Below the pieces are notes generated by a model. That model saw only the letters and a list, made by a program, of their open reading frames with translations, had not been told where the DNA came from and ran no database searches. A DNA stretch of 63,559 nt, counting the filler, from Sphacelaria rigidula (Eukaryota): assembly GCA_964200075.2 (NCBI GenBank). It is 11 parts of 11 records of this genome, joined end to end, with 100 filler letters (N's around TTAATTAATTAA, not from the genome) between each part and the next. Parts side by side here need not be neighbours in the genome. Positions count along the whole stretch, not along the records: positions 34,725 to 40,411 come from CAXNAA020025245.1; 10 more parts are not named here. One strand, written 5' to 3'. Made by a program: the position numbers and the translations under genes. This document shows positions 3,421 to 63,559 of the stretch, piece by piece; position 1 is the stretch's first letter, and every line of letters starts with the position of its first letter.

Positions 3421-5516
3421 GTGTGGGTTTATTTGGAATAGGCGTTATTGTTCAGCGTTTATATAAACACACAAATATATGTTTCGCTTCCCCACTGGTT
3501 GTCGGTGTGTTCAAGTCGGCGACCACGAGGGCAAGGCTTTTGCTGTGCCAAGTCCTGACCCCCTGTTGTATTGAAGTGTTGTATTGAGGGGTATCGCCGC
3601 TCGAGGTGTCCTTTTCGCAGACGAAATATTGATTTATGCAAGTTGGAAAGGCACCGCAGGCTAACGCCTCAAGTCAGGAAGTTGCCAAGCTGGTCTGTAA
3701 TATAAAAACTGTGGACGGGTCCAATGTTGACCCTTTGGTGCAATCACGAACTCCCTTCGCTTCAAAACGCGGCGTGCGGCAATCTCGTTCGATCTAGGCT
3801 TGGCATTACGCAGTGCAAAAAAGGTAAAACGTACTCTAAAGCACTTGTACGAATTAACAAGTGCCATGTTTTCATTTTCAGTCAAGTGTAGTTTTGTTTA
3901 GTCTTAGCACGGACATGAGAAGTGTTCATGTCTCGCTCCTGCACAGCTCATAGGTGAGAGTTCATGGTTTGATATTGCAGCATGGCCAAATAGTGCGTTC
4001 CCGATGGATGTGCTGCAACCTGCCTCCACAGTCTTTCTGGTTTTGTTTTTTCTTTTCTGCATGTTCGTTATTTTGCACGACTGTCCTTCTTGCCTCAAGC
4101 AAGCTACCAATCCATCAGCTAATCATGAAGAGCCGTCATTGATAATCGATCCTAGTGCAGGTGGTACAGAAACGCTGAAGCTCGTTTGTCTCACCCATCT
4201 GTTGCGACTCAGCGTAGAGTGAATCCCCGAAATTCCTGACCTTATACTGCGGGTCGTCCCAGCGCTCGGGAAAAATCACGTATGCGGCATATGTGTCGAA
4301 AGTATCTTGTTTGTGCAAGAGTTGGGGCAGCTTCTACCGCTGTTACGTTTTGCTGTATGCAACATGTCCATTGTTGGAACCTTGAACCTCCCGGCGCTAG
4401 AGTCATCGTCGGGGATTTTATTCTCTGACGAGCTTGAAACACCTTCAAGATCAAATCATGCTGGTGCCATCGTTATACTCGCCACTGTATCGCTTCTGCC
4501 CCCCTACCGCTCTATTCCGTTCTTTCACTTCGAAAAAAAAAGTACAACGCAGTACGGCAGATGGTCGGACGCTTGGAGCAACGTAGTATTTCAGCATATT
4601 TCCTTTTGCCCTTTCAATCGAAGAACGTATAGCTGGGTATATAAGTACGGCAGACAGTCAGGCGCGAAACAAGAAGAAGAGTGGGTATATGGTGGTGGTG
4701 GTGGTGTTTTTTGTTGTTATTGCTGCCCCCTTTCTTTCCTTTCTGAGGCCGTTGCTTCTGTCGTTTTTCTGTTCCTTTTTATTTTATTTATTATTCTGTT
4801 CTATTTTTGCTGCTCCTGACCACGGGTTGGATTGTTGCAATCAGCTAATGTGAGATAATCAATCAATCAATCAATACAGATTCTTTCACGTTCATCACCC
4901 AATATTGTGTCATCAGCAACTGCCCTTCGCAATACCTACCCAGTAGTTGCATACATGTCAACACACCGACCGCCATGGACAGCTGAAGAGCGTGACAGCC
5001 GGATTTGTGTTGAAGGCCAAAGTGTTAGCTTAGCGCTTAGCACCCGTCATATTGTTTCGAGATCGAAATTGCGAACTCCAAGCCCAATTTTCACCCAATC
5101 TCCACATGCTTCAAATTTTGATGATCGCCATCAGCTCGGGAATCTTACGGAAAATATGTATGTGTGAACACGGTGACTACGGGGGTCGAATTATACCCCA
5201 AACCGTGATGTTTCTGTGATGGAGGTTCTGGCGTCGTCTAATGTCCACTCATGATACGAATGAAACACCCAGGGAGCCTCGTGATGGTTTACCTTATATC
5301 TGCTGTAAAGAAGCTCCGATCGTCCCCAAACTTGGCTTTTCCGTAGGTATTGATGCTCGGGCCGGATGTTATGGCACACAGATTTTTAGCCCACGGATTG
5401 TTCACGTCTATGACGTTTGACCCACTTTTTGACCCCCAAGCAGAGAAAATCGCCAACACACGTCTGGGACTCTTTGCATCACCCCATAGAGAGGAGAGCT
5501 TAGCCCACTTTTCAGA

Positions 5517-5815: not shown

Positions 5816-5859
5816 ACAAATGACTAAGGCACGCAACAAATGAGTACGCCCCCCCCCCC
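5816..5859 (+). mobile_element. Poly(C)-tailed LINE 3'-end fragment (family A)
   Basis: AAATGACTAAGGCACGCAACAAATGAGTACG followed by C11, matching the 3' end of the LINE at 38824-39335. Confidence 0.85.
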
Positions 5860-5877: not shown

Positions 5878-6449
5878 AGCCTGGCCCGGCAAGAACTCAG
5901 CGTGCTCCGTTCCGGCTTTGTAGGGACGACCCCCTATGGGGTTGGTGTGGATTGGGCAATGACGCTGTAAAACACGCCTCTCACTGCGTAAGCTAGGCAA
6001 CCAGGTTCCCGGATATTTGTCACGCTCTTGCGTATTTTTTTGCGGTGATCATAATGGTGGTCGAGCTATAACATTTTGTGCGGGGTGAGAGAACCTCAAT
6101 TCCGCGCAAAGGGGATGGCAATACTATGTACTGTTTACGTGGTGAGACACGCATGAGGTAGTGTGTAAGCCGTGGCTGTCTCTGGAAGTGGCGATACCAG
6201 AAAAAGAAGCAATTCATTGTAGACTGTCACCCAAACACAAGATAATCAGTACGCTTCGGGGCGAACAATCTTAGCAGGATGTAGCTCACCCTTCATGCGA
6301 CTCGCCGAACACATCACGGCGCTTCGCGCTCGGTCATTGATTGCGAGCCTGATCCGGCGAACATCCGGCGTGGCCCGTCCCGACTTTGTATGGGTGCGAG
6401 GTCGATGATCAGATGACTACGGCATGAAAGATCATGAGTACACCCCCCC
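5878..6449 (+). mobile_element. Non-coding poly(C)-tailed SINE-like element (family B) placed just after the family A tail
   Basis: Aligns with 34132-34624, 38492-38820(-), 46299-46390, 49443-49610 and 52086-52160(-). It ends ...GATCATGAGTACA-C7 and has an internal ~48-bp direct repeat (5880-5927 / 6346-6395). No long ORF. Confidence 0.85.
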
Positions 6450-7475: not shown

Positions 7476-9522
7476 GTTGGTTCTTTTTTTAGTATTGGTG
7501 TTTTCTTGTCGCCTTCCATTTCCTCTTCATCTCTTTTTTTTCTTCTGATTTTCCCTCCCTGTCTGTTCGTTTCCCCGGTTCTTCTCCCATCTTTTTTAGC
7601 TTTTCAACTTTACGACCGTACTCCCCTGCTCCTGTCAGCACGGTCGTATTTACCACGTAGTGCTGCTTACACACCACAGGATGGTCTGTACACGGCTACA
7701 CGCAGTCGTTCGGATGTATACTTGATACGCGACGAATCAGGGTGCCCAGCGTGCGTTCGATTCCCAGAGCCCCAGAGCGTACCATGCAGCTCCACCGTGT
7801 TGTGCGCCCTCTATTTACGAGACCGTGGTGAACACAAACACTTTATTACGTGTATTTTGGTGTGTTGGGGTGCCACGACGGTAGACCCGCCTGATCCTCT
7901 GACTTTGTTTGGGTCATCAGGGCTGCAGACCTCTGTGAAGCGAGAGCGCTCAGCACTGCACTGAGCGCTGACACTTTAATAGCTGCCAGAGCCGCCGTAT
8001 TCCGTATGCTTTGGGGATGAACTCTCAGCGAATTGATTGCAATGTACACAAATTCCAGAGTCTGCGTTTTCACGGTAACTCACGCCTACGGCCTTTTACC
8101 CGATGGGGCCGTGAAGTGGCCATGATACATGACCCACTTACTTTTTCGTCGTTGCGTCTTCTCCGAAGAACGGTCGTTTCGGAGTATAGAATGAAGTGCG
8201 GCTTGCAAAGCTCTCCACGCGGGGAAGCAGCGGCATCTCATGCTTTTTGTCTTGTAGCAATCCTTGATGCAGAATCGAATACCGGGCCCTGCTTGAGTGA
8301 TGATTGACTGACTGTCACACTTTAACTGACCCCCCCAGGGATCCGCTCGTGGTCACATGATACCTGTGTGTTCGTCTTTGCTTGTCGGCTCTCAGACCGT
8401 GAGCAGGGTGTATAAAAGGCGGTATGAAAAGAAAAGTGCCGAAAACGAAGAGACGTCAAGAAAGGAAGCCAGTCTATCATGCTGTGCTGCGGCGGGCACG
8501 AAAGTGTGTGTATGTGACGAAACGCTCTCTATTTGCACCCGTACATGGAAGTGACCATTCGTGTTTTACCCTTGGAGCAGCTGCCCTATTTTTGTTTCGC
8601 AGTGCGCGTGCGGGGGTAGAAAAGCTTGTGCGCGTGTGCGCCAGATCTACAGTACCTCCCACGCATGTTGTTTTTCATCATACATATTATGTTATGATTG
8701 CAAGATGGTCAAAGATAGCTGAGGCTTCATCTGCGTCCGTGGCCTTATTTTTTGTCCGGCATCGGCATCTTTCTTGAAGCCCTGGTCGACACGTTATTTT
8801 GTTTTGTCTGCGGATCAGTACCCAGTTTTTAGCCTTGCGTTGCTTCGCCGTTCTGTTCTGTGTATTCTTGTCCTTCATTTGTAATTCTGGCTTCCTTTTC
8901 ATCGGCTTCCTCCCGCGATTGCTTCTGTCTCCGTTTTTTTGCACCTTTGATATGTATGTTTTCGTAGCCGCCATTGAAATCGTACCGACTCGGTTAATGT
9001 GTGGCAATCAATGAACCAATTCAGCAATGAACAAATGGGGGAGGCACCGAGGGTTGCAGATGTTGAGAGTCCGGTCGCGGTTCACCGTACTGCGTACAGC
9101 ACCTGCTCTCTGCACTCACCATTGATGCCGTACATTGTTGTATATATTCAAGGTCCGTTCTCCTCACCAGCGAATAGGTGTTTCGAGTTCTGGCTTACGT
9201 TTTTGCACGTCACTCATCACGTTGAGATCTTGACCACGTCGGCAGGTTGTGGCTTCATTACTAGGATCGTATGCCGTAGGCTTTGTGTCGTTGTGTGGAG
9301 TACGTGAAGAGCAGATGGATATCCTCGGTCCTGACGTGCACCCCCCTCCGATCCTACGGAGTATGTGATTCCCCCAAACTCTTGACTGTTTCGCACCGCA
9401 ACTGTGCAAAGCTACGATATCCGCGCGCTCGTTTATTGCAGTTGTTGTTCATATATGAATTTGTTGTTTCAATTCGTGTGCGATATTTATTTGTCGTTGT
9501 ACTGTACTGTACCATACTGCAG

Positions 9523-9693
9523 GTCTACAGGCCGACGTCTGGGGATGCGATGTACCTGGTTCTCGATCGGTTGGAAGGGGGGAGCGTGGAAGGTCTGTGG
9601 CGCGAGCAGGGAAAGTTGAGCGAGGATCACGCGGCCCACATCATGCTGCAGGTCGTGTCGGCTGTGCATTACTGTCACCAGCGAAATATTGCG
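9523..9693 (+). CDS. Ser/Thr protein kinase (CAMK/CDPK-like), exon with subdomains V-VIa; GC donor
   Basis: Encodes VYRPTSGDAMYLVLDRLEGGSV...AVHYCHQRNIA. The donor G|GCAAGT at 9694 joins in frame to HRDLK. Confidence 0.9.
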
Positions 9694-10810
9694 GCAAGTA
9701 TACTCAAGAAAATAATACGCCACGTACAAGAGTAATATAGCACAGATAAGTTGTAAGGCCTGATGACTCCCTGCAGTATTTGCAGACTGAATTTTTTTAA
9801 TTTTCATGAATAAAATCGCTCGAAACTTACTTTCGCAGCTCTTGTTCCCTCCGCGGTGCCTTGTTAAAGCGTTACGGTCCAAGTTCACACTTCACCCAGA
9901 GATATCTCGACTGTATTCCAGCAGAGGAGCACCAAACAAGGGTATTCTCCTGCAGCGGATTACACAGCCTGTTTTTTTGTTGTTGTAACACGGAACAGTA
10001 GCGGATTCGTTCGTGTTTTTTGTGATTACTTCGTATCATGCTTGTGTGATCATACTTGTAAACCCTTGTAAATCCCTCCGCTGCCAGACCCCCCACCCCC
10101 CCCGCCACAGGACGAGTGGGTAGTCCCATGGGATTGTGCCATGTCTCCGCCGATCCTTGTCTCTTGAATCAGCATCCCAACAGACCGACGAGTTTGGTGG
10201 AAATTATCGCTGTTTCCTTATTTTTTCTGTCGGCGGGAACCAGGAACAATGATTCGAAGATCTTGTACTGTTGGGTTTCGAACCCATGATCGTCGCCGTC
10301 TTATCCTGAGAGGTGGGACGACGTTTCGGGGGAGGCGGGAAGGGAAGAGAAGACAGCGACCAAACCAGATCTTCTTGGGAAAGGGAAGCGATCAGTTTTC
10401 TAGATCTCTCATTCTGTTGCTATCCGCGTGCTGTGCTCTGTTGGTCCTTTTGCTTTAGAAGCCAATTCGTGCTTTGCTTCGCGTTCTTCATCGTGACCTG
10501 ACGATATACAATGAAAGGTCACTATCAGTCAATTGTACATGTTCTTCATGCGTTTTTTTTGTGTTTTGCTAATGAATCGATTTTACCAAAAATGATAGTC
10601 ACACGTACGCCCTAGGATTGAAGACCTCATGCTTTCGGTCTTTTTGTCGCCAAGATTCCAGTTTGACGACGTATCGCTTAGACATACTGCCTAATGCCTA
10701 GAACTCGAGGCGTGAGATTGTTTGTTCAATTGTACAGGTACTCAGTCCCAAACGCTACCCCCCCCTGTTGTTTCTCCCTTCTGTAATGTATCTTGGGCAA
10801 AACCGATCAG

Positions 10811-10960
10811 CATCGGGACCTCAAGATGGAAAACAGTGTTTTCGAGGACGCATCACTTGTCCCCATCGTTAAGATCATCGATTTCGGGCTGTGCGCCGAG
10901 CTCAAGAAGGGCGTGACATCCAGGTCTTTCGTGGGTACCGTCCTCTACACAGCACCAGAG
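10811..10960 (+). CDS. Ser/Thr protein kinase (CAMK/CDPK-like), exon with subdomains VIb-VIII
   Basis: Encodes HRDLKMEN...KIIDFGL...FVGTVLYTAPE, with CAG| acceptor and |GTAACG donor. Confidence 0.95.
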
Positions 10961-11576
10961 GTAACGGGGTCCGCTGATTCCGCTGTGGTGGGGTCCCTGT
11001 CGTCTTGGGGTTGCGAGGTGTCGGCGCGTAGCAATGTCGGGGACAGGCATACAACCCGAGGCCGTGTAGATGTAGTCACTTTCAGTCACTTTTTTTTCCA
11101 ACTGAAACATTTAAAGGCCTTGATATGAATGTACAAAAGCTTCTGCGGCAGATATTCTGGACAAGTCTTCAGTCAAGAGGGATTCACCCCTCAGGAATCG
11201 ATGCGACTTTCCCCCGGCACCGTGTGTGAATCTGGCTTACGCCAAGAAAAACCACCACACTCAAATTCACGCCATTTTTTTCGGAGAAGGTAGCTCTGGC
11301 GACCGCGGCACTGTGGGGTCGTGTAAGCATGTGCGTATACAATCGAGCATATTTCCGCAGTTTTGAGAGACACAGAGCCATCGTACGCATATACATTTGC
11401 GACATGTTGTTCGTGATGTTAAATGGACGAACACTTCATGTGTGAGCCATGCTACGATAGAGAGGAGGGGGGGGGGNNNNNNNNNNNNNNNNNNNNNNNN
11501 NNNNNNNNNNNNNNNNNNNNTTAATTAATTAANNNNNNNNNNNNNNNNNNNNNNNNNNNNNNNNNNNNNNNNNNNN

Positions 11577-11640
11577 TACTCATTTGTTGCTTGCCTTAGT
11601 CATTTGACCATTGACCACGCATCCCTTTCGAGACGGAGCA
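11577..11640 (-). mobile_element. Family A LINE 3'-end fragment (tail lost at contig break)
   Basis: Reverse complement reads TGCTCCGTCTCGAAAGGGATGCGTGGTCAATGGTCAAATGACTAAGGCAAGCAACAAATGAGTA. Confidence 0.9.
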
Positions 11641-12254
11641 TCATTCCATGGGGATGAAAATATGCAAATTCGTACCCAAGTAATGGTGGCATATACTGAT
11701 CTAAATAATTAATTGCATTGTTAAGGTTTTCTCATCTTACACAGCAATAACAGTTAACACGGCGGGTTCACATTTGCCACCACTAGGTAGCCTTGCGCCG
11801 TCACACGTTGTTGTGCAACTACATATTTACAAAATTCCAGCCTCTAGGTTCTAAAATCGTATGTCTTTCACGCTGTCGATGACTGTGGACTTAAATAATG
11901 TGGCCGACCTCGTTAAGAAATGCAACAGCTCGAGGGCGTAGATCTGGTAATGCTTCCAAGACGTTTGGGTCCTTCATCACGTCGTAACGTCACGTGACTC
12001 CGACGCATATCATCACGCGGTTGCTCTCGTCATTCGAAATAAGCTGGAAGCGGCGCTGGGTTGCGAAAACATACACAAGCGTGGTCAGGCGGTCGGCAGC
12101 GTACACACACCATGCTCCGTACTGTACAGTTATCTTTAAAGTGGTAGGCAACTGGCGCAGACCGGTGTCGTCTCGTGACGGAAGACGCGGGGTTCACGAC
12201 GTACGATACAATCCAATTTGCAGCTCGGATACAGCTAGAGTAATGTGGACTCAC

Positions 12255-22934: not shown

Positions 22935-23050
22935 CGGAGACCTGCCAGGAACAAGAAAGATATATAGCAGTCGTCGAAAGGAGGAGGAAGTAGATAGAAT
23001 GAACTGCCTCTGTGGCAAAGCAATAGAGAGCAGAAGTCATATAGTGGCAG
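22935..23050 (+). mobile_element. Family A LINE fragment (C-terminal zinc-knuckle region)
   Basis: DLPGTRKIYSSRRKEEEVDRMNCLCGKAIESRSHIVA matches the translation of 39160-39270(-). Confidence 0.85.
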
Positions 23051-23389: not shown

Positions 23390-23640
23390 ATGCCGTGATG
23401 CCCCCCTCCCCCCCCGAGAAAAGTGGCTGGTTTGAGGAGGCAAAATCTACATGCGAATCAAAATGACAAGGGCCGAGCACGCTGCGAGCAGCGGGGAAAT
23501 CCCGCCCTTGGGATCATTTCCGCCAATTTTGACCGTATGAGACGCTCTATGCAGTCTAAAACCGGCTATCAATCGCTGTATGACCATTTTCTTCGCGACA
23601 GTTTTGTTTGGGGCTGGTTTGAGGGGAGTTATCGCGGCAT
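23390..23640 (+). mobile_element. MITE-like element (family C) with C-run/G-run-containing terminal inverted repeats
   Basis: Ends are ATGCCGTGATGCCCCCC and GGGGAGTTATCGCGGCAT. The ~200-bp core matches 40015-40254(-), 47400-47625(-) and 53967-54230. Confidence 0.75.

Positions 23641-26373: not shown

Positions 26374-26444
<71 letters not shown>
26374..26444 (+). repeat. 71-nt poly(G) tract (one T at 26410)
   Basis: Read directly from the sequence. Confidence 0.95.
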
Positions 26445-38491: not shown

Positions 38492-38820
38492 GGGGCGGGG
38501 GAGGGGAGGGGTGTGTGTGTACTCATGATCTTGCATCCCGTAGTCATGCCGTAGTCATAGGACCACTGCCCTCGCATCCCTGCAAAGCCGGGATGGAGCA
38601 CGCTGGGTTTTCGCCGGACCATGCTTGCAATCACCAAGCACGAAGCGCCGTGATGTGTTCGGCGAGTCGCATGAAGGGTGAGCTGCATGCTAAGACTGTT
38701 CCGACCGAAGCGTATTGATCATCTTGAACACGGATGACAGCTTACGATGAGTTGCTTCATTTTCTGGTATCGCCACTTCCAGACAGCCACGGGTTACACA
38801 CTGCCTCATGGGTGACTTAC
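38492..38820 (-). mobile_element. 5'-truncated family B element directly downstream of the family A poly(C) tail
   Basis: Its reverse complement matches 6140-6449. The 5' junction abuts G13 at 38824-38836. Confidence 0.88.
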
Positions 38821-38823
38821 CAT

Positions 38824-39335
38824 GGGGGGGGGGGGGCGTACTCATTTGTTCTTTGCATGAGTCATTTGATCATTGATTACATGTCCCTTTCGAGACGGAG
38901 AACCGTTCCTACTCCAAATAGAGACATCTCCAACAGTTGGGGCGCACATTACGCTTCTTCCGTACACCACACAGAAGCCTCCTACATATCTTATCCACGT
39001 CCTGTTTCGCCGTCTGCGGCCAAGATCTATCTTCTACAGTAGTGTAGCCATCGTTTTCTCCCTACTGTCTAATGCATCAGACGATTCCATGCCACCTTCG
39101 TTTACTTCCCGCAGTCCCCCCTCTGGCACGTCCCGTTCCTCCTTTAATGGTTCACATTCTGCCACTATATGAGTTCTACTCTCTATTGCTTTGCCACAAG
39201 GGCAATTCTGTGCATCTATTTTCTCCTCCTCTCGACTACTGGTTCATATCATTCTCCTTTCTGGCAGGTGCGGGTCCCTCACCCGAGATCGTACAGTCAA
39301 TTTTTCGCGTAGTCCCTTTGGCCATGCGAATATGT
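38824..39335 (-). mobile_element. 5'-truncated CCHC-knuckle LINE (family A) with a poly(C) tail
   Basis: Decayed ORF end ...HLPERR..SSREEEKIDAQNCPCGKAIESRTHIVAECE...DALDSREKTMA...SRNGSPSRK, then TGA-GTACG-C13. The CxC-x8-H-x4-C knuckle resembles non-LTR ORF2 C-termini. Confidence 0.85.
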
Positions 39336-40014
39336 CACCGCGGGGGGGTAGAGACGTATGCCACTCCTCTGCGAGCTGGCGCTGGGATTGGTATCACGCC
39401 GAAGTTGGGCACTAGAGGCAACACGGACATCGGCCTGTTGGTTATTCGCACATTGAATGTGCGCGCAGAATCAGTGCTCCCGCAGAAACCGATGGAGCGG
39501 CAGTACTAATTGTCTGGACCGCAAAGGTACAGGCTCCCCGGAAAATCTTCAAATTGGTCAAGTAACCAACGGCTTGGGAAAAAATATGCTGCTGTCCACG
39601 GAGTGTTGTGGGGTGTTGTTCACCTGTCTCCTCTACCCGTTAGGCATCTTGTTTTAATATGTTGGCTCGGGGGAGAGTTGAGCCGGCTGTAACCGATAAC
39701 GGCAGCACATTATGCGTGGTTTCCTCTCCATTCGATCGGCAACAGACACAACAGCACGTGTCGACGACCACAGCCCTGAAAGATCATTCTCCGTCGCAAC
39801 AAAGCTTCCGGGACCCAAACAGGGTCCAAAGGGTAAAAAATAATGATTCTTGGCGGCGTGGGCACGCATGTCGCGTGTTTCCTCAACAGCGTCTCTCGAG
39901 GTTAATGTCACTTGACACAGACCATGAAAAATGAGGGCTGTATAGCGTACATGCGATATATTATAGTACTGCATCTGTTACAGGGAGTGTAGCGAGCACA
40001 GCAATGGTACGAGT

Positions 40015-40254
40015 TATGCAGCGATAGCACCCCCCCCCCCTCCCCGCCCAAAACCAGCCACAAAACTGTCACGAAGGAAACGACCACACAGCGCATGATG
40101 GCTGGTTTCAGAATGCATGAAGCACCTCCTGTGGGCAACATTGGCGGAAACGATCCTAGGCGTGGGAGTTCCAAGCTGCTCGGTGCTCTCGGCTTTTTTT
40201 TCCCCCATCATTTTGATTCACATGTAGATTTTGGGTCCTCAAACCAGCTACTTT
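40015..40254 (-). mobile_element. Family C MITE-like element whose G-run end is hit by family A insertions
   Basis: The core matches the reverse complement of 23420-23625. Confidence 0.75.
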
Positions 40255-40411
40255 TCTGACGGCGGGGGGTACTCATTTGTTGCTCACCTTAGTCGTTTGA
40301 CCATTGGCCGCGCATCTCTTTCGAGACGCTCTGACGGCGGGGGAGGGGGGGGGAGGGGAGGGCGTTCTCATTTGTTGCTTGCCTTAGTCATTCGACCACT
40401 GACCACGCATC
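40255..40411 (-). mobile_element. Two stacked family A 3'-end insertions, the first with a 14-bp TSD
   Basis: TCTGACGGCGGGGG occurs at 40255-40268 and 40330-40343. The second copy spans 40345-40411. Confidence 0.9.
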
Positions 40412-47020: not shown

Positions 47021-47289
47021 AAAATCAAATGGTTCCGACCTATTTGGTTCCCCCTCCACCAAGCTACGTTGACCGAAAAAGGTACGTCAACTAGTAAGGC
47101 CCACGGGCGAATAAGGTACATATGTAAGTAGAGTACGCTAGGGAATGACGTGCAGCAGGAGTTACAGGCTCATCCGCGGAAACGCATGAAAGAGTGCGCA
47201 CTGACGGTCTCTCGAGAACTCTTTGGAACTATTACTTAAAATTTCACACATCCATCCGTTTGCCCAGGACGAAAATGAATATATGAGTC

Positions 47290-47625
47290 TTTTTACGATA
47301 CCCCCCCCCCCATAGTGCTCCGTCTCGAAAGGGATGCGTGGTCAATGGTCACACGACTAAGGCAAGCAACAAATGAGTACGCCCCCCCCCTCCCCCCATG
47401 AAAAAAATAGCCTAAACTCACACTAAGAAAATGGTCATCATAGAGCCTGATGCATTTCTTCAGGCCGCATAAAGCGCCGAACATGTGCGAGATCGGCGAA
47501 ACCGAACACAAGCGTGGGGAATCCCAGCTACTCGTTGTGCTCGGCTTTTCATTTCGATTCACGTGTAGATTTTTCGCCTGCCCAAACCAGCAAGGGTCTT
47601 GGGGGAGGGCTATCGTAAAAAGTGT
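47290..47625. mobile_element. Family C MITE with a family A 3' end (47316-47397, +) nested in the C-run of its left TIR
   Basis: CTTTTTACGATA-C11 ... GGGGGAGGGCTATCGTAAAAAG. C-runs flank the nested insert on both sides. Confidence 0.85.
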
Positions 47626-49442: not shown

Positions 49443-49610
49443 ACTCACCCCTCATGCGACACCCCGAAGACATCACGGCGCTTCACGCTTGGTGATTGCG
49501 ACTCTGGTCCGGCGAAATCCGGCGTGTTCCGTCCCGACTTTGTGGGGATGCGAGGTCAATGGTCTAATGACTGCGGCATGACTACGGCATGCAAGATCAT
49601 GAGTACACCG
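49443..49610 (+). mobile_element. Family B 3' portion
   Basis: CTCACCCCTCATGCGAC...GCAAGATCATGAGTACACC. The tail is only 2 C. Confidence 0.85.
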
Positions 49611-50266: not shown

Positions 50267-50355
50267 CGATAGGGGGGGGGCGTACTCATTTGTTGCTTGC
50301 CTTAGTCGTTTGACCATTGACCACGCATCCCTTTCGAGACGGAGCACGATAGGGG
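50267..50355 (-). mobile_element. Family A 3'-end insertion with a 9-bp TSD
   Basis: CGATAGGGG occurs at 50267-50275 and 50347-50355. The tail is G9 on the plus strand. Confidence 0.92.
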
Positions 50356-51756
50356 AGGGAGGGAGGGATGTTGGTCATACTCTAGATGTACCTATGATTT
50401 TTTGCCTTATCCCCGTCAACAAGCAGCACACTTTGCCTCTAACTCGCCACCCATAGTGCTGTTCTACCCGTTAGCCCCAAGTTGCCGAGATGGCTCGTGA
50501 TGCAGACAACAGCCACTGCGCACAAATGTGCCGCCGTGTTTTTGGTAAGGTATGTAGAGCAAGCCACTAATGTACTTTTCAGATCTGCACTATTGTTCGG
50601 CATATTCCCCGGCCAGACACACGTGAATCGCAGCTTCTTCCACTAGGCCCCGGCTGAAGGTGCCGTTTCTGGGGCGACACCTAGAATTACACGAGCTCTC
50701 TCTAGGATGTACATTCATTTGTGTGTGGGAGGATGATGCTTGCTTTTCAGTCGGTAGAGACACTCTGAATATTTGGGGCTTCACAATACGGGGAAAACCC
50801 CCCAACAACTAAGGGGGGCTGCAATGGCACACTGTTGAGTACGTAAATAGCCACTCAGCAAAACACATCGGATACGTACGCGCCTTGCAATTTTCACAAC
50901 GAAAGTGTTGCTGTTGAGCGAGAACCGCGGTTCTCATGACCACGACCAGGCGGAACTTCAAATCTTGCACCAGCGGCTTTACCATGTACTTGACGGCGGC
51001 GTGATACTACCCCAGACGATACCTAAAACACAAGAAGTCATTCACGTGGCGTAGTTAGCCCGTTTACAAGACTACACCAACCGCAATTTGCCGCAAGGCT
51101 CTCTTTTTCCGACCCTGCCGTCTGCTTCGCATGCCAGGCATTTTCAAGGGGTGATCAGACCTGCGCCTGGACATCGCGCTATTATAAGCCACTTGTGTAT
51201 AATAATTAGAGACATGGTTATGAAAAGCGTATCTCCATTGACTCATTTCATGAGACGACGTGATTGGCTGTTTCCTGCAACTAATGAATAACCCAAGTGG
51301 GGGTATATAGAGCGTCAGGGAACTTCCAAGGGTTTGGACGGGCAGCTTCATTCTACTCCGGTTTACATGGTCATATAAAATTGATCATTTACCCTGCCTG
51401 CAGTATTGATTGAGTTATTGTGTCGGCACATCCAAAATGGGGTTCTCGTAGCTTGCCCGGGGAAGCTTCAAAAGATTGGGCATTGGAGTGTCCGTAAGTA
51501 ATCCCATGCATGAATTCCCCCCCCCCCCCGAAAAAGAAGAGACTCCTGTGTCGGCTTTCCTCCCTCCTGTGTAACCCCGGCGGGTCCGCCCACATCTGCG
51601 GAAAGGTGCAGACTAGCGTCTAGAATAGATGAGATGACAACACCGCAGTTTTAGGGCTCTGACTATCTTGAAACTTTCGAGCGAGGAGGAATCATGGAAT
51701 GAATAAGTTCGTCCACTACTGTTTACTTGCCCCGAAGTGAGTCACGCGTTCACAAA

Positions 51757-51872: not shown

Positions 51873-51902
51873 CAGTTTCCTTCTCTCCCGCCCCCCCCCC
51901 CC

Positions 51903-51985
51903 TAGCTAAAGGGACAAAATGAGACGTGAACAAAAGTGGCATGAAATCGTTTGATGCATTAGACAGTAGGGAGAAAACGATGGCT
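51903..51985 (+). mobile_element. Family A LINE internal fragment with its 5' junction at a C-run
   Basis: Encodes VNKSGMKSFDALDSREKTMA and is preceded by the C-run ending at 51902. Confidence 0.85.
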
Positions 51986-53966: not shown

Positions 53967-54230
53967 GACACTTTCTACGGTAGCCTCCCCCCCCACCCCA
54001 GAAGGGGCTGGCTTGGGGAGGCAAAACCTACACGTAGATTGGAATGAAAAAAGCCGAGCACATCGAGCAGCTGGGAATTCCCATGCTTGGATTCGTTTTC
54101 ACCGATGTCGCCCATATGAGGCGCTTCATGCAGCCTGAAACCAAACATCAGGCGCTGTATGACCATTGTATTTTCGAGAGTTTTTCGCTGCGTTTGTGTT
54201 TGGGGGGGGGGGGCTATCGTAGAAAATGTC
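53967..54230 (+). mobile_element. Family C MITE in a TRAPPC10 intron
   Basis: TIRs are GACACTTTCTACGGTAGCCTCCCC and GGGGGCTATCGTAGAAAATGTC. Confidence 0.85.
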
Positions 54231-56955: not shown

Positions 56956-57469
56956 CTGTGGCAATGGGGGAGACCCGGAAGGTGGGGGTGGGGGTGGGGG
57001 TGTGGGAGGGGAGGGTTGAACGGGGTGTGAAGAGGATCATCCGGGTAGGAGCGACGTGTAGGTACCCTATTCTCCAGCAGACAGGTGACTCCTGCCCCAG
57101 TTGGTTTCAGTACTCTGCTACGATCCATACCCTCATCCCGTGATGGACCGTATCGCAGACACAACGGGAGATTGTGGCGCAGTTGGGGGGCAGGGCAGTG
57201 TGACAGAATGGGGATGTAGGGTACAAAGTTTTTGACAACAGACGAAAATCTCAAATCCCTTTGCACGCAAGACTGTCTTAGATTGTTGGACAACAACTGA
57301 TCCCGCTACAAATCCAATCGCGGTCACAAGAGAGACAATCGTTGCACGAAATCTCCACGGTTGGTGTAGAAAGACGTTGACATGAACAACAAACATCTTA
57401 CGGAGCCATCCTTCCCTAAATGCACATGCAGGAAAGCCCCCCCGCCCTCTTTCCCCCTCCCGCCCCTAC

Positions 57470-57537
57470 ATCCCGAAAGGGATACGTCGTCAATGGTCAA
57501 ATGACTAAGGCAAGCAACAAATAAGTACGCCCCCCCC
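57470..57537 (+). mobile_element. Family A 3' end with C8 tail, intronic
   Basis: ...GTCAATGGTCAAATGACTAAGGCAAGCAACAAATAAGTACG-C8, with a C-rich 5' flank. Confidence 0.88.
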
Positions 57538-58519: not shown

Positions 58520-61500
58520 GACCTGCTACTACTAGTCAACGATATCTTTCCAGAACAAAATTCATTACACAACAGCATTCTCGAAGGCTGCACAACAACT
58601 CCAATAGTTTCCTATTGCCCCGCATAATGTCCCGCCTGTTACTTAGTGAACAAACCTTCGTATCTTAGCTTGATGCTACTGAACATTGACTCACATATGA
58701 TATGCAACACGAAACTCTCGACACCCCTCCCCAATGGAAGTAGCACTCAGGAAAAGTAAAGAAATGCGGACCGATGAATATTCTAGGCCCACTTATGCAA
58801 ACGCATGTTTCCATTTCTGCACATTCTCTTCAATTTACCCTTGGATTCTCAATCTCAACCCTTTCTACGTTCTCATTTCTTCAAAACACCGTCGTGATCC
58901 AACCACACGCTAAAAAGTACGCATCATACCACCTCCCTTGTTCGCGTCCTTATTTTAAGTCCTAAAGGTCTTGATTATGTGCAGCAGATGCAGGTGACGT
59001 TGCTTGCCCGAGCATTTCGTCCCAATGTCGGCGTTGTTCGTGGTCATGAAGGGTGACCCTCCGCTTCTTGATGAGTTAGCGAATGAAGAAGTAGCGCAAT
59101 GCCACAAGCTTGGTCCGTCCACTGTAGGTGCTGTTACCGGCAACGTGAAGTGTTGAGGTGTCGTCGATGTGAACCGGAACACTGTGAAATGCCTCGCCGA
59201 ATCCCAACTCCAGCATCATCTTAGAACGGAACCCAGCCTCCTTGATTGCTAGCGCTGCCACCACAAGCTCAGCTTCTATTGTCGACTGAGCAGGTGGACC
59301 CTGTATTCCGACCTTGAAACTCACCGGAGCGTTCGAGAGCATGACGATATACGTGGACATCGATTTCCCGTTATCAGGGTTGTTCCCTCAGTTGGCGTCC
59401 GAAAACGCCGTGAGCTGGAATCCAACCTTCCTGTACGTGATATCGAAATTAGCACTCCGCGCAAGGTAGCGTAGAAGATGTTACGCAGCACCCATGTGTG
59501 CTATTGATGATCTTGACATCGCTCTCGCAAGCTGGTTGACAGGAAAATGGATATCATACCGGGTCACTTGTGCTAGATACATTAACGAGCCGGTGATCGC
59601 CTGGTATCGCTGTGTTGCCGCCGGATTCAGAAGCTGCTGTTCCGGTTGATTTGATGACAGCTCTGCTCCCGTTCCTGGTGTACTCAGCGGATTGCAGTCC
59701 CTTATGCCTCACTTCTCCAGGATCGATTTGGTGTAGTTCTCCTGGCTGATCGTGAGCGTCCCATTCTCGCAATCTCGGGTGACTCTCATTCCGAGTGCAA
59801 GCGACACGTCTCCCATGTCCGTCATTTTGAAACGAAACACGAGCGTTTTCTTGAGCATCTATAGTACTGCCACGTCCCCTCCAACAAGGAGCACATCGTC
59901 CACGTAGAGGGTGAGAAGCGCGACAACCTTCCTCTTTCCGAGAGCGGTGATGACGGTGTCACCCCGGGAGCTACCAGCCCTAATGCCGTCGTGGTCGTCG
60001 TTGTCAGTGAAGGCGTAGATGCAGGGATCTGAAGCGAGAGAGGTGGAACTGATCTCCAGAAAATTGTTCATGGTGTTCCACCAATTCCGTGGCGACTGAC
60101 GGAGGCCATATAACGACTTCCGGAGCTTGATCACGAGAAGAACTCTCGTCACGAGATCGTTCTCCTCATAGCCCGGGGCCATCTTGACGTACACTTCCTC
60201 TTCAACGGGCGCGTTGAAACATGCCGTCTGCACGTCCAGCTACCAGAGTTCCCAGTCCATCTCGGCAGCCGCTGCAAGCACCATACGGATGCTCTGTAGC
60301 CTACAGAGGGAAGCGAAGGTGCTGCCGCAGTCAATGTCTGGTCTTTGTCCCCATCCTTGGACGACGAGCCTTCCCTTGCATGTGTTGTCGGCTTTAACCA
60401 CATACACCCACCGGGGTCCGATGGCGATCATCCCCGCAGGAATCGCCGTGAAGGGTACAAGCGTGAAGACATTACTAAAACGGAAGCTTTCTACCTCCTT
60501 GTCTGATGCTGCCTTTCATTGCTTCGCCGCTGGCAGTCGCATTGTCTCTTGAAAGGTGTTCGGCACTATGACCACTTTCTCCCCCTCCGAACAACTTCGA
60601 ATTCGGATGTTTGCGGCAGAGTACGCATACTCCAGAAAGGAAACTCCATCTTTGAGCGATGTCTCGCATATTTGTCCTGGTGTAGAAGTTGGCCAAAGTC
60701 TCCAGGCGCTTAAGCTCGCGGGCTCGAGCGCTGCTCGTGCCTGCGCCGATTATGATGTTTATCGGGGCTTGTGGGTTAGCCCGCGTGCTGACACGTGAAG
60801 AATCCGCTGGGGGTGACGGGGTTGTAGCTGGAGGTAAACCTTCAGTGACTCCCCCTTCTGGGGAGGCTCCAGTTGGGACCTCTCTCGATGAAGATCCGAT
60901 AAGGTCGTTGACGCGGTCCGTCACGTCGCGTAGATCTCCGTGTTGTTTGCTTTTGCTTAGAACGCATACGTCGCAGGGTGATAACGTTCCATCGATATCA
61001 GAGCCTCCCACCTTCCGAATTACATTCAGGCTCTTGATGCCGACGTGACCAAGTCGGCGATGTCAGAGGTTTGCGCCTGTGCTGACGTGCATAGCCACTC
61101 CAGGTTGCTGCTCCGCGAGGCCGCTCAGCTTCATGCGAAACGTGTAGAGGTCTTGGTCATTGATCGACTGTGTAATGCGTGAGAGGACTGCGTGTTTAGG
61201 GGGCCGCGTTGTAGTTCGAAACATCTCAGGATCGATATTTTCAGAAGAAATCCGGCCAGTCCCTGCAGGGACCACGCCCCTGACCCTGACCCCAACCCTA
61301 AGCCTAATCCTAACCCTAACCATGAGGCTGTTCAAATTCCGATGCGGTCCTCTAAGCACGCGGTCCTCCACGCATTACAGATTGTTCCAGGGGAAGCACG
61401 AACGGTGAAGTCTCTAGTCGGGGATCATATTGATCAAAGATGGCGATGGTGCCTTGCTTGGTCGCCATTTTCACGGATAACAGATGACACCCTAGTCGGG

Positions 61501-62720
61501 GACGACGGAGCAAGAGAGGGCGACATGGTGCGCCTTCTCTTGTCTGTCGGTGACTGTACCATGAATGGTGGTAGTTGCGACTGCTTCCACTTTATTTTGT
61601 CCCCCTGTTATAATTTTGAACGGTCGTTCGAGGGCCGTGAACGAACTCGCCCGTGCTAAAACACCCGACTCGAGATTGATGTCCAAGTAATGACCGGTCG
61701 CGCCACTGTCCAACAGCCAGGTTACGGAGTTGGTGTCGTTGGCTGTCCGAGCCGTTGGTGCCGCCGCAATGAAGGCTGCGCCTGTACCCCCACCGAAGGC
61801 ACCGAAGAGTTCAAATATATGTTTTGGGAGTCCGGCATGCTCTGGTGGGGTAGACGCGCCGAAGGAAAACACAGGAGGAGCCGACTCCGTCATCACAGGT
61901 TGCTGGGGTCCTCCGACTGTTCCGGACGAATTGCTGTTTGCAGTCGTCGCCGCGGCAGGCGGCAGGATGAACGACCGGGACATGCTCACATTGGCGATGT
62001 TGGCGTTTCCATTCGTTGCTGCTTTCTCTTGTTGTGCCTTGCACTCAGCATCGTTGTGTGTTGTTGTTCTGTGATACGAGCACCATTTTGATGCTTCGTT
62101 ACTTCCCTTTTTCTTGTCTGCTTTTCGACGTCTCTGTGTTGGGTTACTCTGCCGTGTCCGACTTCACCTGTTGTTCGGGCGTTCACGTTGACAGTGCTCA
62201 AACCCCTTGCAAAGGTGACACTGGATACGAAATGTCGTAGCCTGCATGGCCGATCCAGGTCCGGCCACGGTTGGTCTAGTTGACGAACCAAAATTCCGAC
62301 CATTGTACGAGTTGCACATTGCGGTGTGAATGTTGTCGAGACCGAAGTCGCGCTCGGTGTAGCATTTCGTGCGCACGAAGTCATACTCGAGGGTTACCGC
62401 CTTGAGGATAATGTCCTCGTAGCGATCGTCATGCATTTTATCCCCGAGGCTCTCCATACGCGGATGAATTTTGTCCATGTCTTGGAAGAAATTTTCGGGG
62501 TCCTCGCCCGGTTGCATCGTGCGGCTAACCAGCTGAGCGTGAATTGCCCGCCTAGCCGCTTTGGTGTTGCCGTCGAACTTCTCGACCAGGGCCTTCCACG
62601 CACCATGCCCATCACCGACCCGCAGACCGTCGAGGTCTTCATCCTCTGTGTACAAGAACCGCCGGATGGTCGCAGCAGTGAAGGTGCTCTTATTGTTCGT
62701 AAATGTAGGTTGAATACGGC
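58520..62720 (-). mobile_element. Decayed Ty1/Copia LTR retrotransposon lacking the integrase core
   Basis: Domain order is gag (GHGAWKALVEKF; knuckle CHLCKGFEH), protease WLLDSGATGHY (~61700), pre-integrase HRRLGH..CDVC (~61060-60960), RT (KGRLVVQG, KSLYGLRQSPRNW, YVDDVL) and RNase H (FSDAN*G, STIEAE). A PPT GGGGAGGGG is followed by TG at 58723 (3' LTR start). There are many stops and frameshifts; the 5' LTR is not seen and the LTR end is approximate. Confidence 0.93.
61171..61379. mobile_element. MITE with TGT...ACA termini, ~45-bp TIRs, 5-bp TSD and an internal telomere-like array, nested in the Copia element
   Basis: TGTAATGCGTG...CACGCATTACA with flanks GACTG / GATTG. Removing it restores the Copia frame (LPLEQ|SINDQDLY). 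Confidence 0.88.
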
Positions 62721-62773
62721 CACTATGCGGTCGGAACTGGTGGCGGTGTAACTGATCATGCAGAGAAAAAATA

Positions 62774-63180
62774 AACTACGCAACGCTGTACGCTTCGAGG
62801 CTTATCAATGCTTGACGCGCAATTGCGAATTCCCAGACTGTACCGCCTTCCTGCGCGCACACGTTTAAACTGTAGCTTGTACAGACTGCAGCTGATGCAG
62901 GTTTCGTCCGCAGGGATGATGAACTACGCAAGGCTGTACGCTTCGAGGTTTACCTATTCTCGACCCGTAAGTGCGCATTTTCTGACTGTGCCGCCTTCCT
63001 GCCCTCACAGGTTTTCACTGTACCTCGTACAGACCACAGCTGGTGCAGGTTTTGTCCGCAGAGATTATGAACTACGCAAGGCTGTACGCTTCGAGGCTTA
63101 CCGATACTCGATGCGTAAATGTTAATTCCTTGACCGTGACGCCTTCCTGCGCGCACAGGTATAAACTGTAGCTCGTACAG
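62774..63180. repeat. 148-bp tandem repeat, about 2.75 units
   Basis: AACTACGCAASGCTGTACGCTTCGAGG starts at 62774, 62922 and 63070. Confidence 0.92.
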
Positions 63181-63559
63181 CGTGCCGCCTTGACTCCAGA
63201 TGCGTAGAGTACAATCCGCGGTTGCCCCAACTCACTTGTAGTGTCTGTGTTGTCCCAGGTATTCAGCTCCTCTGTAGAACTCTTCAGAACTCTGTAGAAC
63301 TGGTCGATGGCATCTCCCCGGCAAGCTCTTCTTTAGAAGCTCTCGGCATTTGCGTCTCACAGACAATCGAGGCTCACAACCTATTGAGGAATACGGTAGT
63401 CGTGGAGACCGTTGTACTCCTCTTGGCAGGTGACTGCAGAGGTTGGCGCATGCAGCTTCATGCTGACCTCGTCTCAGGAATGAGCACCGCAGGTGACTGA
63501 ACACGAACGAATATATATTACTACTTGTCCATGAATCATCCTACGATTGGGGGGGGGGG

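What the first reader, a model, noticed from the sequence alone, without database searches (positions are those of the whole stretch)
38824..39348. A LINE whose 3' tail is poly(C), not poly(A)
Seen in sequence: a non-LTR-type ORF end with a CCHC-like knuckle (CPCGKAIESRTHIVAEC) runs to TGA, then GTACG, then C13. The same terminus with a C-run or C-rich tract recurs at 5816, 40264, 40345, 47316, 50272 and 57470; at 11577 the tail is lost at the contig break. These copies span six unlinked contigs, have variable 5' truncation and a fixed 3' end. Established: that pattern marks target-primed reverse transcription, and LINE tails are normally poly(A) or short A-rich tandem repeats. Inference: this abundant family ends in oligo(C) and has almost no 3' UTR. 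I do not know of a described poly(C)-tailed LINE, but I could not search.
Basis: partly seen in the sequence, partly recalled or inferred. Interest (0 to 1): 0.9.

Follow-up and report, generated by a model that had tools for sequence, protein, structure and literature searches.

The report
Brown-algal LINE ending in oligo(C)
This is a decayed, front-truncated copy of a very abundant brown-algal jumping gene (an RTE-X-type LINE) that really does end in a run of C instead of A, but the same oddity is already recorded for its Ectocarpus relatives.

Summary
On the minus strand, 38837-39341 is a 5'-truncated, stop-riddled LINE copy. Its reading frame ends at TGA, then 5 nt, then C13 (38824-36). 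The same ~60-70 nt terminus occurs 8 times in the window. All 7 copies whose downstream side is visible are followed by a C tract, as are 3 of 3 intact copies in unrelated public assemblies. One of those assemblies carries an intact 1333-aa endonuclease + reverse transcriptase + CCHC ORF. Seven of 9 copies also have a C-rich tract just 5' of them, and the target-site duplications begin with that C run. New copies sit behind older C tails, giving head-to-tail arrays. A ~0.6 kb non-coding partner family shares the last ~60 nt and the C-rich tail.

Most likely mechanism (inferred): target-primed reverse transcription in which a G run at the nicked strand pairs with an element-borne oligo(C).

It is not new. 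The supplementary annotation table of Genome Biol 2025;26:320 lists Ectocarpus RTEX-1/RTEX-2 as "single EN-RT ORF; (C)n 3'", with "C-rich" TSDs, and a 607-bp partner, RTEX-N1. The window comes from another brown alga, so this is a new member of a known kind. The mechanism is still unstudied.

The parts
38837..39341 (-). 5'-truncated, decayed copy of the LINE (family A). Covers the last ~157 codons including the CCHC motif, with two in-frame stops.
   Evidence: tblastn of P0004 residues 1204-1360, 47% identity, E 1e-29.
38842..38844 (-). ORF stop codon TGA. Only 5 nt (38837-38841) separate it from the C run.
   Evidence: Same layout in L001-L003.
38824..38836 (-). C13 tail (G13 on the + strand).
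39342..39348 (-). C7 directly 5' of the copy. This is the C-run part of the target or its duplication.
38492..38823 (-). 5'-truncated copy of the non-coding partner family B. It starts directly after the C13 of family A, ends in the shared terminus and has a 20-nt C-rich tail (38492-38511).
   Evidence: Summed depth there is even higher than over the LINE.
5817..5859 (+). Short family A 3' end (5817-5848) plus C11 (5849-5859). It has an imperfect 10-12 nt direct repeat after the C runs on both sides. A family B copy follows (about 5878-6442, tail C7 at 6443-6449).
11577..11647 (-). Short family A copy whose tail is cut off by the piece break. It is 60/60 identical to the intact external element.
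40264..40411 (-). Two family A copies head to tail. The first is 40363-40411 (cut by the piece end) with a 24-nt C-rich tail (40339-40362). The second is 40270-40329 with C6 (40264-40269). A 9-nt direct repeat follows the C run on both sides of the second copy.
47289..47397 (+). Short family A copy (47313-47381) with tail C9TC6 (47382-47397). It is inserted in the C run (C11 at 47301-47311) that bounds another repeat (D).
50272..50370 (-). Short family A copy (50281-50348) with tail C9 (50272-50280). A C-rich tract plus a 5-nt direct repeat (TATCG) lie on both sides.
57437..57537 (+). Short family A copy (57471-57529) with tail C8 (57530-57537) and a C-rich tract 5' of it.
51891..51985 (+). 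C12 followed, 5 nt later, by a 5'-truncated internal family A fragment that runs off the piece end.
22939..23050 (+). Older family A fragment (residues 1221-1257, with CCHC) running off the piece end. It has no clear C run 5' of it.

Best explanation
**What it is**
- The locus is a dead, 5'-truncated copy of a highly abundant non-LTR retrotransposon of a brown alga.
- The element has a single ORF encoding an APE endonuclease, a reverse transcriptase and a C-terminal CCHC motif.
- It is of the kind annotated as RTE-X in Ectocarpus.

**Shown here**
- The element's DNA ends 5 nt after its stop codon in a run of C.
- Copies are 5'-truncated and flanked by duplications that begin with a C run.
- Insertions sit in or just behind pre-existing C runs, including the tails of older copies, which gives head-to-tail arrays.
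- A ~0.6 kb non-coding family (B) shares the last ~60 nt and the C-rich tail, so it is presumably mobilised in trans.

**Inferred**
- The endonuclease nicks the strand that carries the complementary G run.
- The freed G-run 3' end pairs with an oligo(C) near the 3' end of the element's RNA and primes reverse transcription. This is the L1 scheme with C:G in place of A:T.
- The oligo(C) is inherited from the parent copy by read-through transcription and adjusted by slippage, as in LINEs with microsatellite tails. It is not added like poly(A).
- With almost no 3' UTR, the sequence recognised by the RT must lie in the last ~60-70 coding nucleotides.
For: **It is a LINE**
- P0004 (1360 aa; Pfam RVT_1 and Exo_endo_phos) matches the window's C-terminal frame at 47% identity over 87% of the query.
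- contig L004 holds an intact 1333-aa ORF, 88% identical to P0004, with APE and RT. It ends with the same stop, 5 nt and C13.

**The C tail**
- 7 of 7 window termini with a visible downstream side have a C tract.
- 3 of 3 external copies at different loci have C8, C10 and C13.
- the background for CCCCC in a 7-nt window is 0.0059.

**Target preference**
- 7 of 9 copies have at least 8 C in the best 10-nt window within 20 nt upstream, against a background of 0.0107.
- direct repeats begin with the C run and extend 0-12 nt beyond it in all 5 copies that have both ends visible plus a repeat (5817, 38837, 40270, 47313, 50281). The 57471 copy has only C4+T.
- two of four copies of an unrelated repeat (D) carry family A insertions in their bounding C/G run. 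The other two have a single uninterrupted run, so they serve as paralogous empty sites.

**Extra Cs beyond the target**
- In 5 of 6 copies the 3' run exceeds the perfect C run adjacent to the 5' end by 4-9 C.

**Arrays**
- A behind A at 40264-40411.
- B behind A at 38823 and at about 5878.

**Abundance**
- Summed contig depth is 0.9-2.0 million over the LINE part, against about 67 for single-copy flanks in run X1. This is a rough indication of the order of 10^4 copies.

**Recent activity**
- The short copies are 97-100% identical to the intact external elements over the last 62 nt.

**Lineage**
- The nearest named RT relatives are Ectocarpus proteins, at 68% identity, and they have a similar C-terminus.
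- A host kinase exon matches brown algae best, at 77-84%.

**In print**
- supplement file 1 of PMC12477816 lists RTEX-1a_Ec32 as 'single EN-RT ORF; (C)n 3'' with TSD 'C-rich'.
- It lists RTEX-2_Ec32 as '(C)n termini/TSD'.
- It lists RTEX-N1_Ec32 as 607 bp, non-autonomous, '60 bp 3' end 83% RTEX-1/RTEX-2', 'can be present in tandem'.
Against: - No RT or endonuclease of this family lies in the window itself. The link rests on homology of the last 157 residues and of the terminal nucleotides.
- RTE-X membership was not tested against Repbase or against the Ec32 consensus sequences, because the FASTA supplements are unreadable here.
- No RNA evidence exists. Whether transcripts end in, or merely contain, oligo(C) is unknown.
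- One copy (40270-40329) has no more C at its 3' end than its target duplication can explain, and it lacks the terminal G.
- One family B copy (49599) has no C run.
- Two of 9 copies lack a C-rich 5' flank.
- Homopolymer slippage after insertion blurs all length comparisons.
- No conserved RNA structure was found in the terminal 70-110 nt. The fold z-score is 0.08, and 0 of 11 predicted pairs covary.
- The clustering of 5' ends at 58-70 nt before the tail is not explained by simple random truncation.
Confidence: 0.8

Rival explanations
1. The LINE is tail-less and site-specific. It inserts only into pre-existing (C)n tracts, as microsatellite-specific LINEs do. All C on both sides are then split or duplicated target, and none is carried by the element.
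For: - Seven of 9 copies have a C-rich 5' flank.
- The copy at 40270-40329 has a C6 that is fully accounted for by the repeat shared with its 5' side.
- Insertions lie inside the C/G runs of repeat D.
- The published note reads '(C)n termini/TSD'.
Against: - The 3' run is longer than the adjacent 5' run in 5 of 6 copies, for example C13 against C7 and C11 against C4.
- In the filled D copy the two runs total 27 nt, against about 12 in an empty paralogue.
- All 3 intact external copies carry C8-C13, so transcripts reading through a parent copy would contain the run anyway.
Confidence: 0.12
2. The C are neither templated by the parent copy nor taken from the target. They are added during mobilisation. 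Either the RNA is C-tailed by a nucleotidyl transferase, or the RT adds untemplated G to the nicked primer before it engages the RNA at GTACG.
For: - Tail length varies from C6 to C13 and beyond between near-identical copies.
- The templated sequence ends sharply at GTACG in 9 of 10 family A copies.
Against: - No data here speak for such an activity.
- It would not by itself explain the strong C-run preference of the target.
- The interruptions within tails (T, G) look like decay of inherited runs.
Confidence: 0.06
3. The C/G runs are artefacts: poly-G from two-colour sequencing chemistry, or assembly joins through homopolymers.
For: - Several pieces end in G10-G11 (11467-11476 and 63549-63559).
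- Homopolymers are hard to assemble.
Against: - The runs sit at one exact position of the element in 7 of 7 window copies and in 3 assemblies from other sources.
- They are bracketed by matching target duplications.
- An 89-nt contig of an independent run matches 38825-38913 without a difference (table 8).
- The same feature was curated from a near-complete Ectocarpus assembly.
Confidence: 0.02

Closest known systems
RTEX-1_Ec32 / RTEX-2_Ec32 (LINE/RTE-X of Ectocarpus) with their non-autonomous partner RTEX-N1_Ec32. Source: Genome Biol 2025;26:320, PMC12477816. I saw main-text passages and passages of supplement files 1-4, not the whole text.
   Same: - Single EN-RT ORF.
- (C)n at the 3' end and 'C-rich' target duplications.
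- They are the most abundant LINE group of that genome.
- A ~600 bp non-coding partner shares about 60 nt of the 3' end and occurs in tandem.
- The host is a brown alga.
   Different: - The species and sequence differ. The nearest Ectocarpus protein is 68% identical in the RT, and a host exon is only 77-84% identical to Ectocarpus and Laminaria.
- A-to-B identity over the shared end is 73-77% here, against the 83% reported there.
- No direct comparison with the Ec32 consensus sequences was possible.
- The paper's main text does not discuss the tail. 'c-rich' occurs 0 times, and the 2 uses of 'tail' are unrelated.
RTE-clade LINEs, for example RTE-1/2_Ec32 with (CAA)n tails. The general RTE features are recalled, not tested.
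   Same: - Single ORF with APE and RT.
- Very short 3' UTR.
- A short repeat as tail instead of poly(A).
- Non-autonomous partners that share only the extreme 3' end.
   Different: - The repeat unit here is a single C.
- This ORF has a C-terminal CCHC motif and a conserved terminal peptide.
L1-type LINEs (recalled textbook knowledge).
   Same: - Homopolymer tail.
- Target duplication that begins with the same base as the tail.
- Priming by a complementary homopolymer at the nick.
- New copies landing in the tails of old ones.
- Frequent 5' truncation and trans-mobilised short partners.
   Different: - C instead of A.
- Poly(A) is added after transcription, whereas oligo(C) must be templated or made in another way.
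- One ORF instead of two.
- A 5-nt 3' UTR.
Microsatellite-targeting LINEs (recalled from the literature on sequence-specific R1/R4-type elements; no paper read here).
   Same: The 3' end of the element is the same simple repeat as the target, so tail and target cannot be cleanly separated.
   Different: - The repeat here is mononucleotide.
- The preference is strong but not absolute (7 of 9).
- The element itself creates new targets.

Membership tests
Non-LTR retrotransposon (LINE) with APE-type endonuclease | Reverse transcriptase domain of the LINE type | tested here: met
   RVT_1 at E 7e-32 in the intact ORF of L004. The precomputed Pfam for P0004 agrees. It is not present in the window copies, which hold only residues 1204-1360.
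Non-LTR retrotransposon (LINE) with APE-type endonuclease | N-terminal apurinic-like endonuclease | tested here: met
   Exo_endo_phos at E 8e-11 and Exo_endo_phos_2 at E 1e-7 in L004.
Non-LTR retrotransposon (LINE) with APE-type endonuclease | Common 3' end, 5'-truncated copies and variable-length target-site duplications | tested here: met
   Eight termini with 5' ends from 35 to about 500 nt before the tail. Direct repeats flank the copies that have both ends visible.
Non-LTR retrotransposon (LINE) with APE-type endonuclease | No long terminal repeats or terminal inverted repeats | tested here: inconclusive
   None are seen around the truncated copies or in the 5259-bp contig L004. However, the true 5' end of a full-length copy was not reached.
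RTE-X clade (Repbase) | RT groups with RTEX reference elements in a phylogeny | not testable with these tools
   No Repbase sequences are available here. Indirect evidence only: the Ectocarpus (C)n-tailed elements have best blastp hits to RTEX-4_NV and RTEX-1_BF according to the paper's table. This family's nearest named relatives are Ectocarpus proteins.
RTE-X clade (Repbase) | Single ORF with EN then RT, and a very short 3' UTR | tested here: met
   One 1333-aa ORF in L004. There are 5 nt between the stop and the tail.
RTEX-1/2_Ec32-like family of brown algae | (C)n 3' end and C-rich target duplication | tested here: met
   Seven of 7 window termini and 3 of 3 external termini have the C tract. 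Seven of 9 copies have a C-rich 5' flank.
RTEX-1/2_Ec32-like family of brown algae | Nucleotide similarity to the published consensus sequences | not testable with these tools
   The library FASTA supplements cannot be read here.
RTEX-1/2_Ec32-like family of brown algae | Non-autonomous ~0.6 kb partner sharing ~60 nt of the 3' end | tested here: met
   Family B spans about 5878-6442 and shares 73-77% identity over the last ~62 nt. It has a C-rich tail in 3 of 4 copies. No tRNA, 5S or 7SL head was found.
Poly(A)-tailed LINE (L1-like) | A-rich 3' tail | tested here: not met
   No family A copy is followed by an A run.

The most novel reading that the evidence does not exclude
The oligo(C) is a functional, templated tail. 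It pairs with a G-run primer produced by an endonuclease that prefers C/G homopolymers. Every insertion would then seed the next target. This would drive head-to-tail arrays and the spread and growth of C/G runs through brown-algal genomes. The window has 89 hits to C10, against 0.11 expected. In addition, a discrete terminal module of about 70 nt may be copied preferentially, which would mark the minimal unit recognised by the RT. None of this is discussed in the text I could search.
Probability: 0.35. Interest if true: 0.5.

Novelty: new member of a known kind. Interest (0 to 1): 0.3.

Why it matters
- Homopolymer tails other than poly(A) are rare among LINEs. An oligo(C) tail cannot be supplied by normal polyadenylation.
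- The family is therefore a natural test of how a LINE defines its RNA 3' end and chooses its target by base pairing.
- It is also by far the most abundant repeat signal at this locus, and it probably shapes the unusual density of C/G runs and the contig breaks of the assembly.
- For genome annotation, C/G runs next to this terminus should be read as retrotransposon tails, not as sequencing artefacts.
- The basic fact is already in a curated Ectocarpus library. The gain here is that the feature is conserved in another brown alga and in marine metagenome contigs. The window also adds detail on target choice.

Tried and rejected
**Searches that gave little or nothing**
- No whole genome is held for the window, so a genome-wide logo was impossible.
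- The scans of metagenome contigs and genome contigs gave only 2 and 1 loci.
- The contaminated bin G001 holds only one copy of the terminus.
- Viral contigs gave no relative.
- Earlier findings of this scan: none.
- The Atlas look-up gave only generic EN-RT clusters without taxa.
- Rfam and tRNA scans of the window gave nothing, so family B's head stays unassigned.

**RNA structure in the terminal 70-110 nt**
- It is not supported. The fold z-score is 0.08, and 0 of 11 pairs have compensatory change.

**Sequencing runs**
- No RNA holder is listed.
- The four runs laid are contigs, which cannot show RNA ends.
- No contig bridges from unique sequence across the C13, because the flank is itself a repeat.

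**Considered and rejected**
- Homology past the C run: the flanks differ in all 10 visible cases. The apparent continuation at 38823 and 5860 is a separate family (B) that also occurs alone.
- Pieces of the window being contiguous: apart from the piece 2/3 junction, the ends do not continue each other.

**Literature**
- 'poly C tail' + retrotransposon gave 0 papers.
- 'non-LTR retrotransposon' + 'poly C' + 'target-primed reverse transcription' gave 0 papers. The search engine may not match 'poly(C)' written with brackets.
- 'RTE-X' / 'non-LTR' / '3 tail' gave 15 listings, none on tails.
- 'RTEX' / 'RTETP' / 'Proto2' gave 3 papers. Passages of PMC5753468 only confirm that RTEX is a Repbase clade.

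Full report
**1. The window**

It is not one stretch of genome. It consists of 11 pieces of 5687-5688 bp joined by N44, a 12-nt stop-codon spacer and N44. No whole genome is held for it. C or G runs of 10 or more give 89 pattern hits, against 0.11 expected from shuffles.

**2. The observation**

- The frame ends at TGA (38842-38844). Then come 5 nt (38837-38841) and C13 (38824-38836).
- The frame is broken by two in-frame stops.
- Only the last 157 residues of the protein are present.
- The C7 at 39342-39348 lies just outside the 5' end of the copy.
- Self-BLAST and a motif scan find eight copies of the same 3' terminus: 5840+, 11583-, 38845-, 40276-, 40371-, 47373+, 50289- and 57521+.
- There are also two internal fragments that run off piece ends, at 22939-23049 and 51905-51985.
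- One terminus is cut by a piece break. The other 7 of 7 are followed by C11, C13, C6, a 24-nt C-rich tract, C9TC6, C9 and C8.
- A given 7-nt window of this sequence holds CCCCC with probability 0.0059.

**3. It is a LINE**

- No ORF of 100 aa or more in the window has a LINE-type RT. The only RT is a Copia-type RVT_2 near 60 kb.
- The read-through C-terminal frame finds five longer proteins. One is P0004, 1360 aa with RVT_1 and both endonuclease families, at 47% identity over 87% of the query.
- A 26-nt pattern from the terminus finds three public contigs from different assemblies.
- In each contig an open frame ends in the same way and is followed by C8, C10 or C13, and then by unrelated sequence.
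- One of these contigs (L004) carries an uninterrupted 1333-aa ORF, 88% identical to P0004. Pfam finds an endonuclease at residues 192-436 and an RT at 762-1011 of the 1381-aa open frame.
- The CCHC motif and a terminal peptide are conserved in more distant relatives.
- The short window copies are 97-100% identical to these intact elements over the last 62 nt. The copy in the finding is 84% identical, so it is older.

**4. Target sites**

- Seven of 9 copies with a visible 5' boundary have at least 8 C in the best 10-nt window within the 20 nt upstream. The background is 0.0107. The two exceptions are 11647 (C4 only) and the old fragment at 22939.
- Where both sides are visible, the copy is bracketed by direct repeats made of the C run plus 0-12 further nt:
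  - 5 nt at the 50281 copy;
  - 9 nt at the 40270 copy;
  - 2 nt at the 47313 copy;
  - 1 nt at the 57471 copy;
  - an imperfect 10-12 nt at the 5817 copy;
  - C only at the copy of the finding.
- In 5 of 6 copies the 3' run is 4-9 C longer than the perfect run next to the 5' end. The 40270 copy is the exception, and it also lacks the terminal G.
- New copies lie directly behind older tails. A follows A at 40264-40411. The partner family follows A at 38823 and near 5878.
- An unrelated ~215-bp repeat (D) is bounded by a C run on one side and a G run on the other, with inverted flanks.
- Two of D's four copies carry family A insertions in those runs. The other two have one uninterrupted run and so act as paralogous empty sites. 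The filled run totals 27 nt in two parts, against about 12.

**5. A partner family**

- The sequence just beyond the C13 (38823 down to about 38521) is itself a repeat (B). It occurs six times in the window.
- B extends to about 570-600 bp where it is complete (about 5878-6442).
- B has no similar frame but shares the last ~62 nt with the LINE at 73-77% identity.
- B ends in a C-rich tract in 3 of 4 copies.
- No tRNA or Rfam family matches its head.

**6. Abundance and host**

- Contigs of four public runs laid on piece 7 give summed depths of 0.9-2.0 million over the LINE part and 4.3 million over B. Neighbouring single-copy sequence in run X1 gives about 67.
- The tool warns that this is not a copy number. 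I read it only as very high, of the order of 10^4.
- Many joints place the G run next to different positions of B, and one places the position 70 nt before the tail next to a C-rich tail. This is consistent with C runs preceding truncated copies elsewhere in the genome (tables 5 and 5c).
- The nearest named relatives of the RT are Ectocarpus proteins, at 68% identity.
- A host kinase exon matches Ectocarpus species and Laminaria best, at 77-84%.
- The window is therefore from a brown alga or a close relative, but not from one of those species.

**7. Mechanism**

- Shown: the fixed 3' end, the 5-nt UTR, the C tract, the C-run preference and C-initial duplications, the arrays and the shared terminus with B.
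- Inferred: this is target-primed reverse transcription in which the G run exposed by the nick pairs with oligo(C) on the RNA.
- Inferred: the oligo(C) is inherited from the parent copy by read-through and changed by slippage.
- Inferred: recognition by the RT rests on the last 60-70 coding nucleotides. Conservation of those nucleotides between the coding LINE and the non-coding B supports this last point.
- A conserved RNA fold is not supported.
- Unexplained: five of 9 copies start 58-70 nt before the tail, and three of them start within 2 nt of each other.

**8. What is known**

- Genome Biol 2025;26:320 (PMC12477816) reports that RTE-X LINEs and a ~600-bp partner, RTEX-N1_Ec32, are the most abundant families of Ectocarpus. 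It reports that the partner shares its 3' end with RTEX-1/2 (main-text passages).
- Its supplementary annotation table (file 1, passages) reads:
  - RTEX-1a_Ec32: 'single EN-RT ORF; (C)n 3'', TSD 'C-rich', best blastp RTEX-4_NV;
  - RTEX-2_Ec32: '(C)n termini/TSD';
  - RTEX-N1_Ec32: 607 bp, '60 bp 3' end 83% RTEX-1/RTEX-2', 'can be present in tandem'.
- The main text does not mention the tail.
- The library FASTA files could not be read, so identity with those families is by features, not by alignment.
- My searches for a discussion of poly(C) LINE tails found nothing. The engine may miss 'poly(C)' written with brackets, and subscription journals and Repbase reports are not covered.

**9. Verdict**

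- The element is a member, in another brown alga, of an already catalogued kind of LINE.
- The mechanism of the C tail remains unstudied in the text I could search, and that is where the remaining interest lies.

Noticed in passing
window 23401-23640 (+), 53975-54225 (+), 40010-40263 (-), 47289-47622 (-): A ~215-bp repeat (D) is bounded by a C run on one side and a G run on the other, and the 8-13 nt outside the runs are inverted repeats of each other. One example is the 22-nt arms at 47289-47310 and 47601-47622, which are 91% complementary. It looks like a MITE-like element whose terminal repeats include a homopolymer. So not every C/G run here is a LINE tail, but these runs are used as LINE targets.
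   Followed up: partly
window 26374-26444: G36, one T, then G34: a 71-nt near-pure homopolymer, far longer than any LINE tail in the window. No recognised element terminus lies next to it.
   Followed up: no
window 47313, 50348, 11647, 40329, 57471 (5' ends of short copies): Five of 9 LINE copies begin 58-70 nt before the tail, three of them within 2 nt of each other. A joint in public contigs (38907 to 40360) repeats this boundary next to a C-rich tail. It could be a preferred stop of the RT or a discrete terminal module. It remains unexplained.
   Followed up: partly
window 11467-11476 and 11577: Piece 2 ends in G10, and piece 3 begins with the LINE terminus lacking only its last 2 nt. The two pieces may be neighbours broken inside the homopolymer. 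Pieces 10 and 11 also end in G runs. Most piece ends fall in these repeats.
   Followed up: no
L004 about 4735-4850 (minus-strand numbering): Upstream of the intact LINE, in the opposite orientation, lies a diverged copy of the same terminus. Here about 29 nt separate the terminal motif from a C-rich tract. This may be a subfamily with a longer 3' UTR.
   Followed up: no
window 59557-62775 (-): Remains of a Copia-type LTR retrotransposon: RVT_2, gag_pre-integrs and Retrotran_gag_2 in successive broken frames.
   Followed up: no
window 9280-9732 and 10787-11125 (+): Two exons of a protein kinase gene. Their best matches are EF-hand kinases of Ectocarpus species and Laminaria, at 77-84% identity.
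   Followed up: partly
window 1252-3438 (+): A 729-aa open frame with no Pfam match, overlapped by long frames on the other strand.
   Followed up: no
window 49444-49608 (+): A family B copy with the normal terminus but no C run after it (only CC). It is the single exception among 14 visible A and B termini.
   Followed up: no
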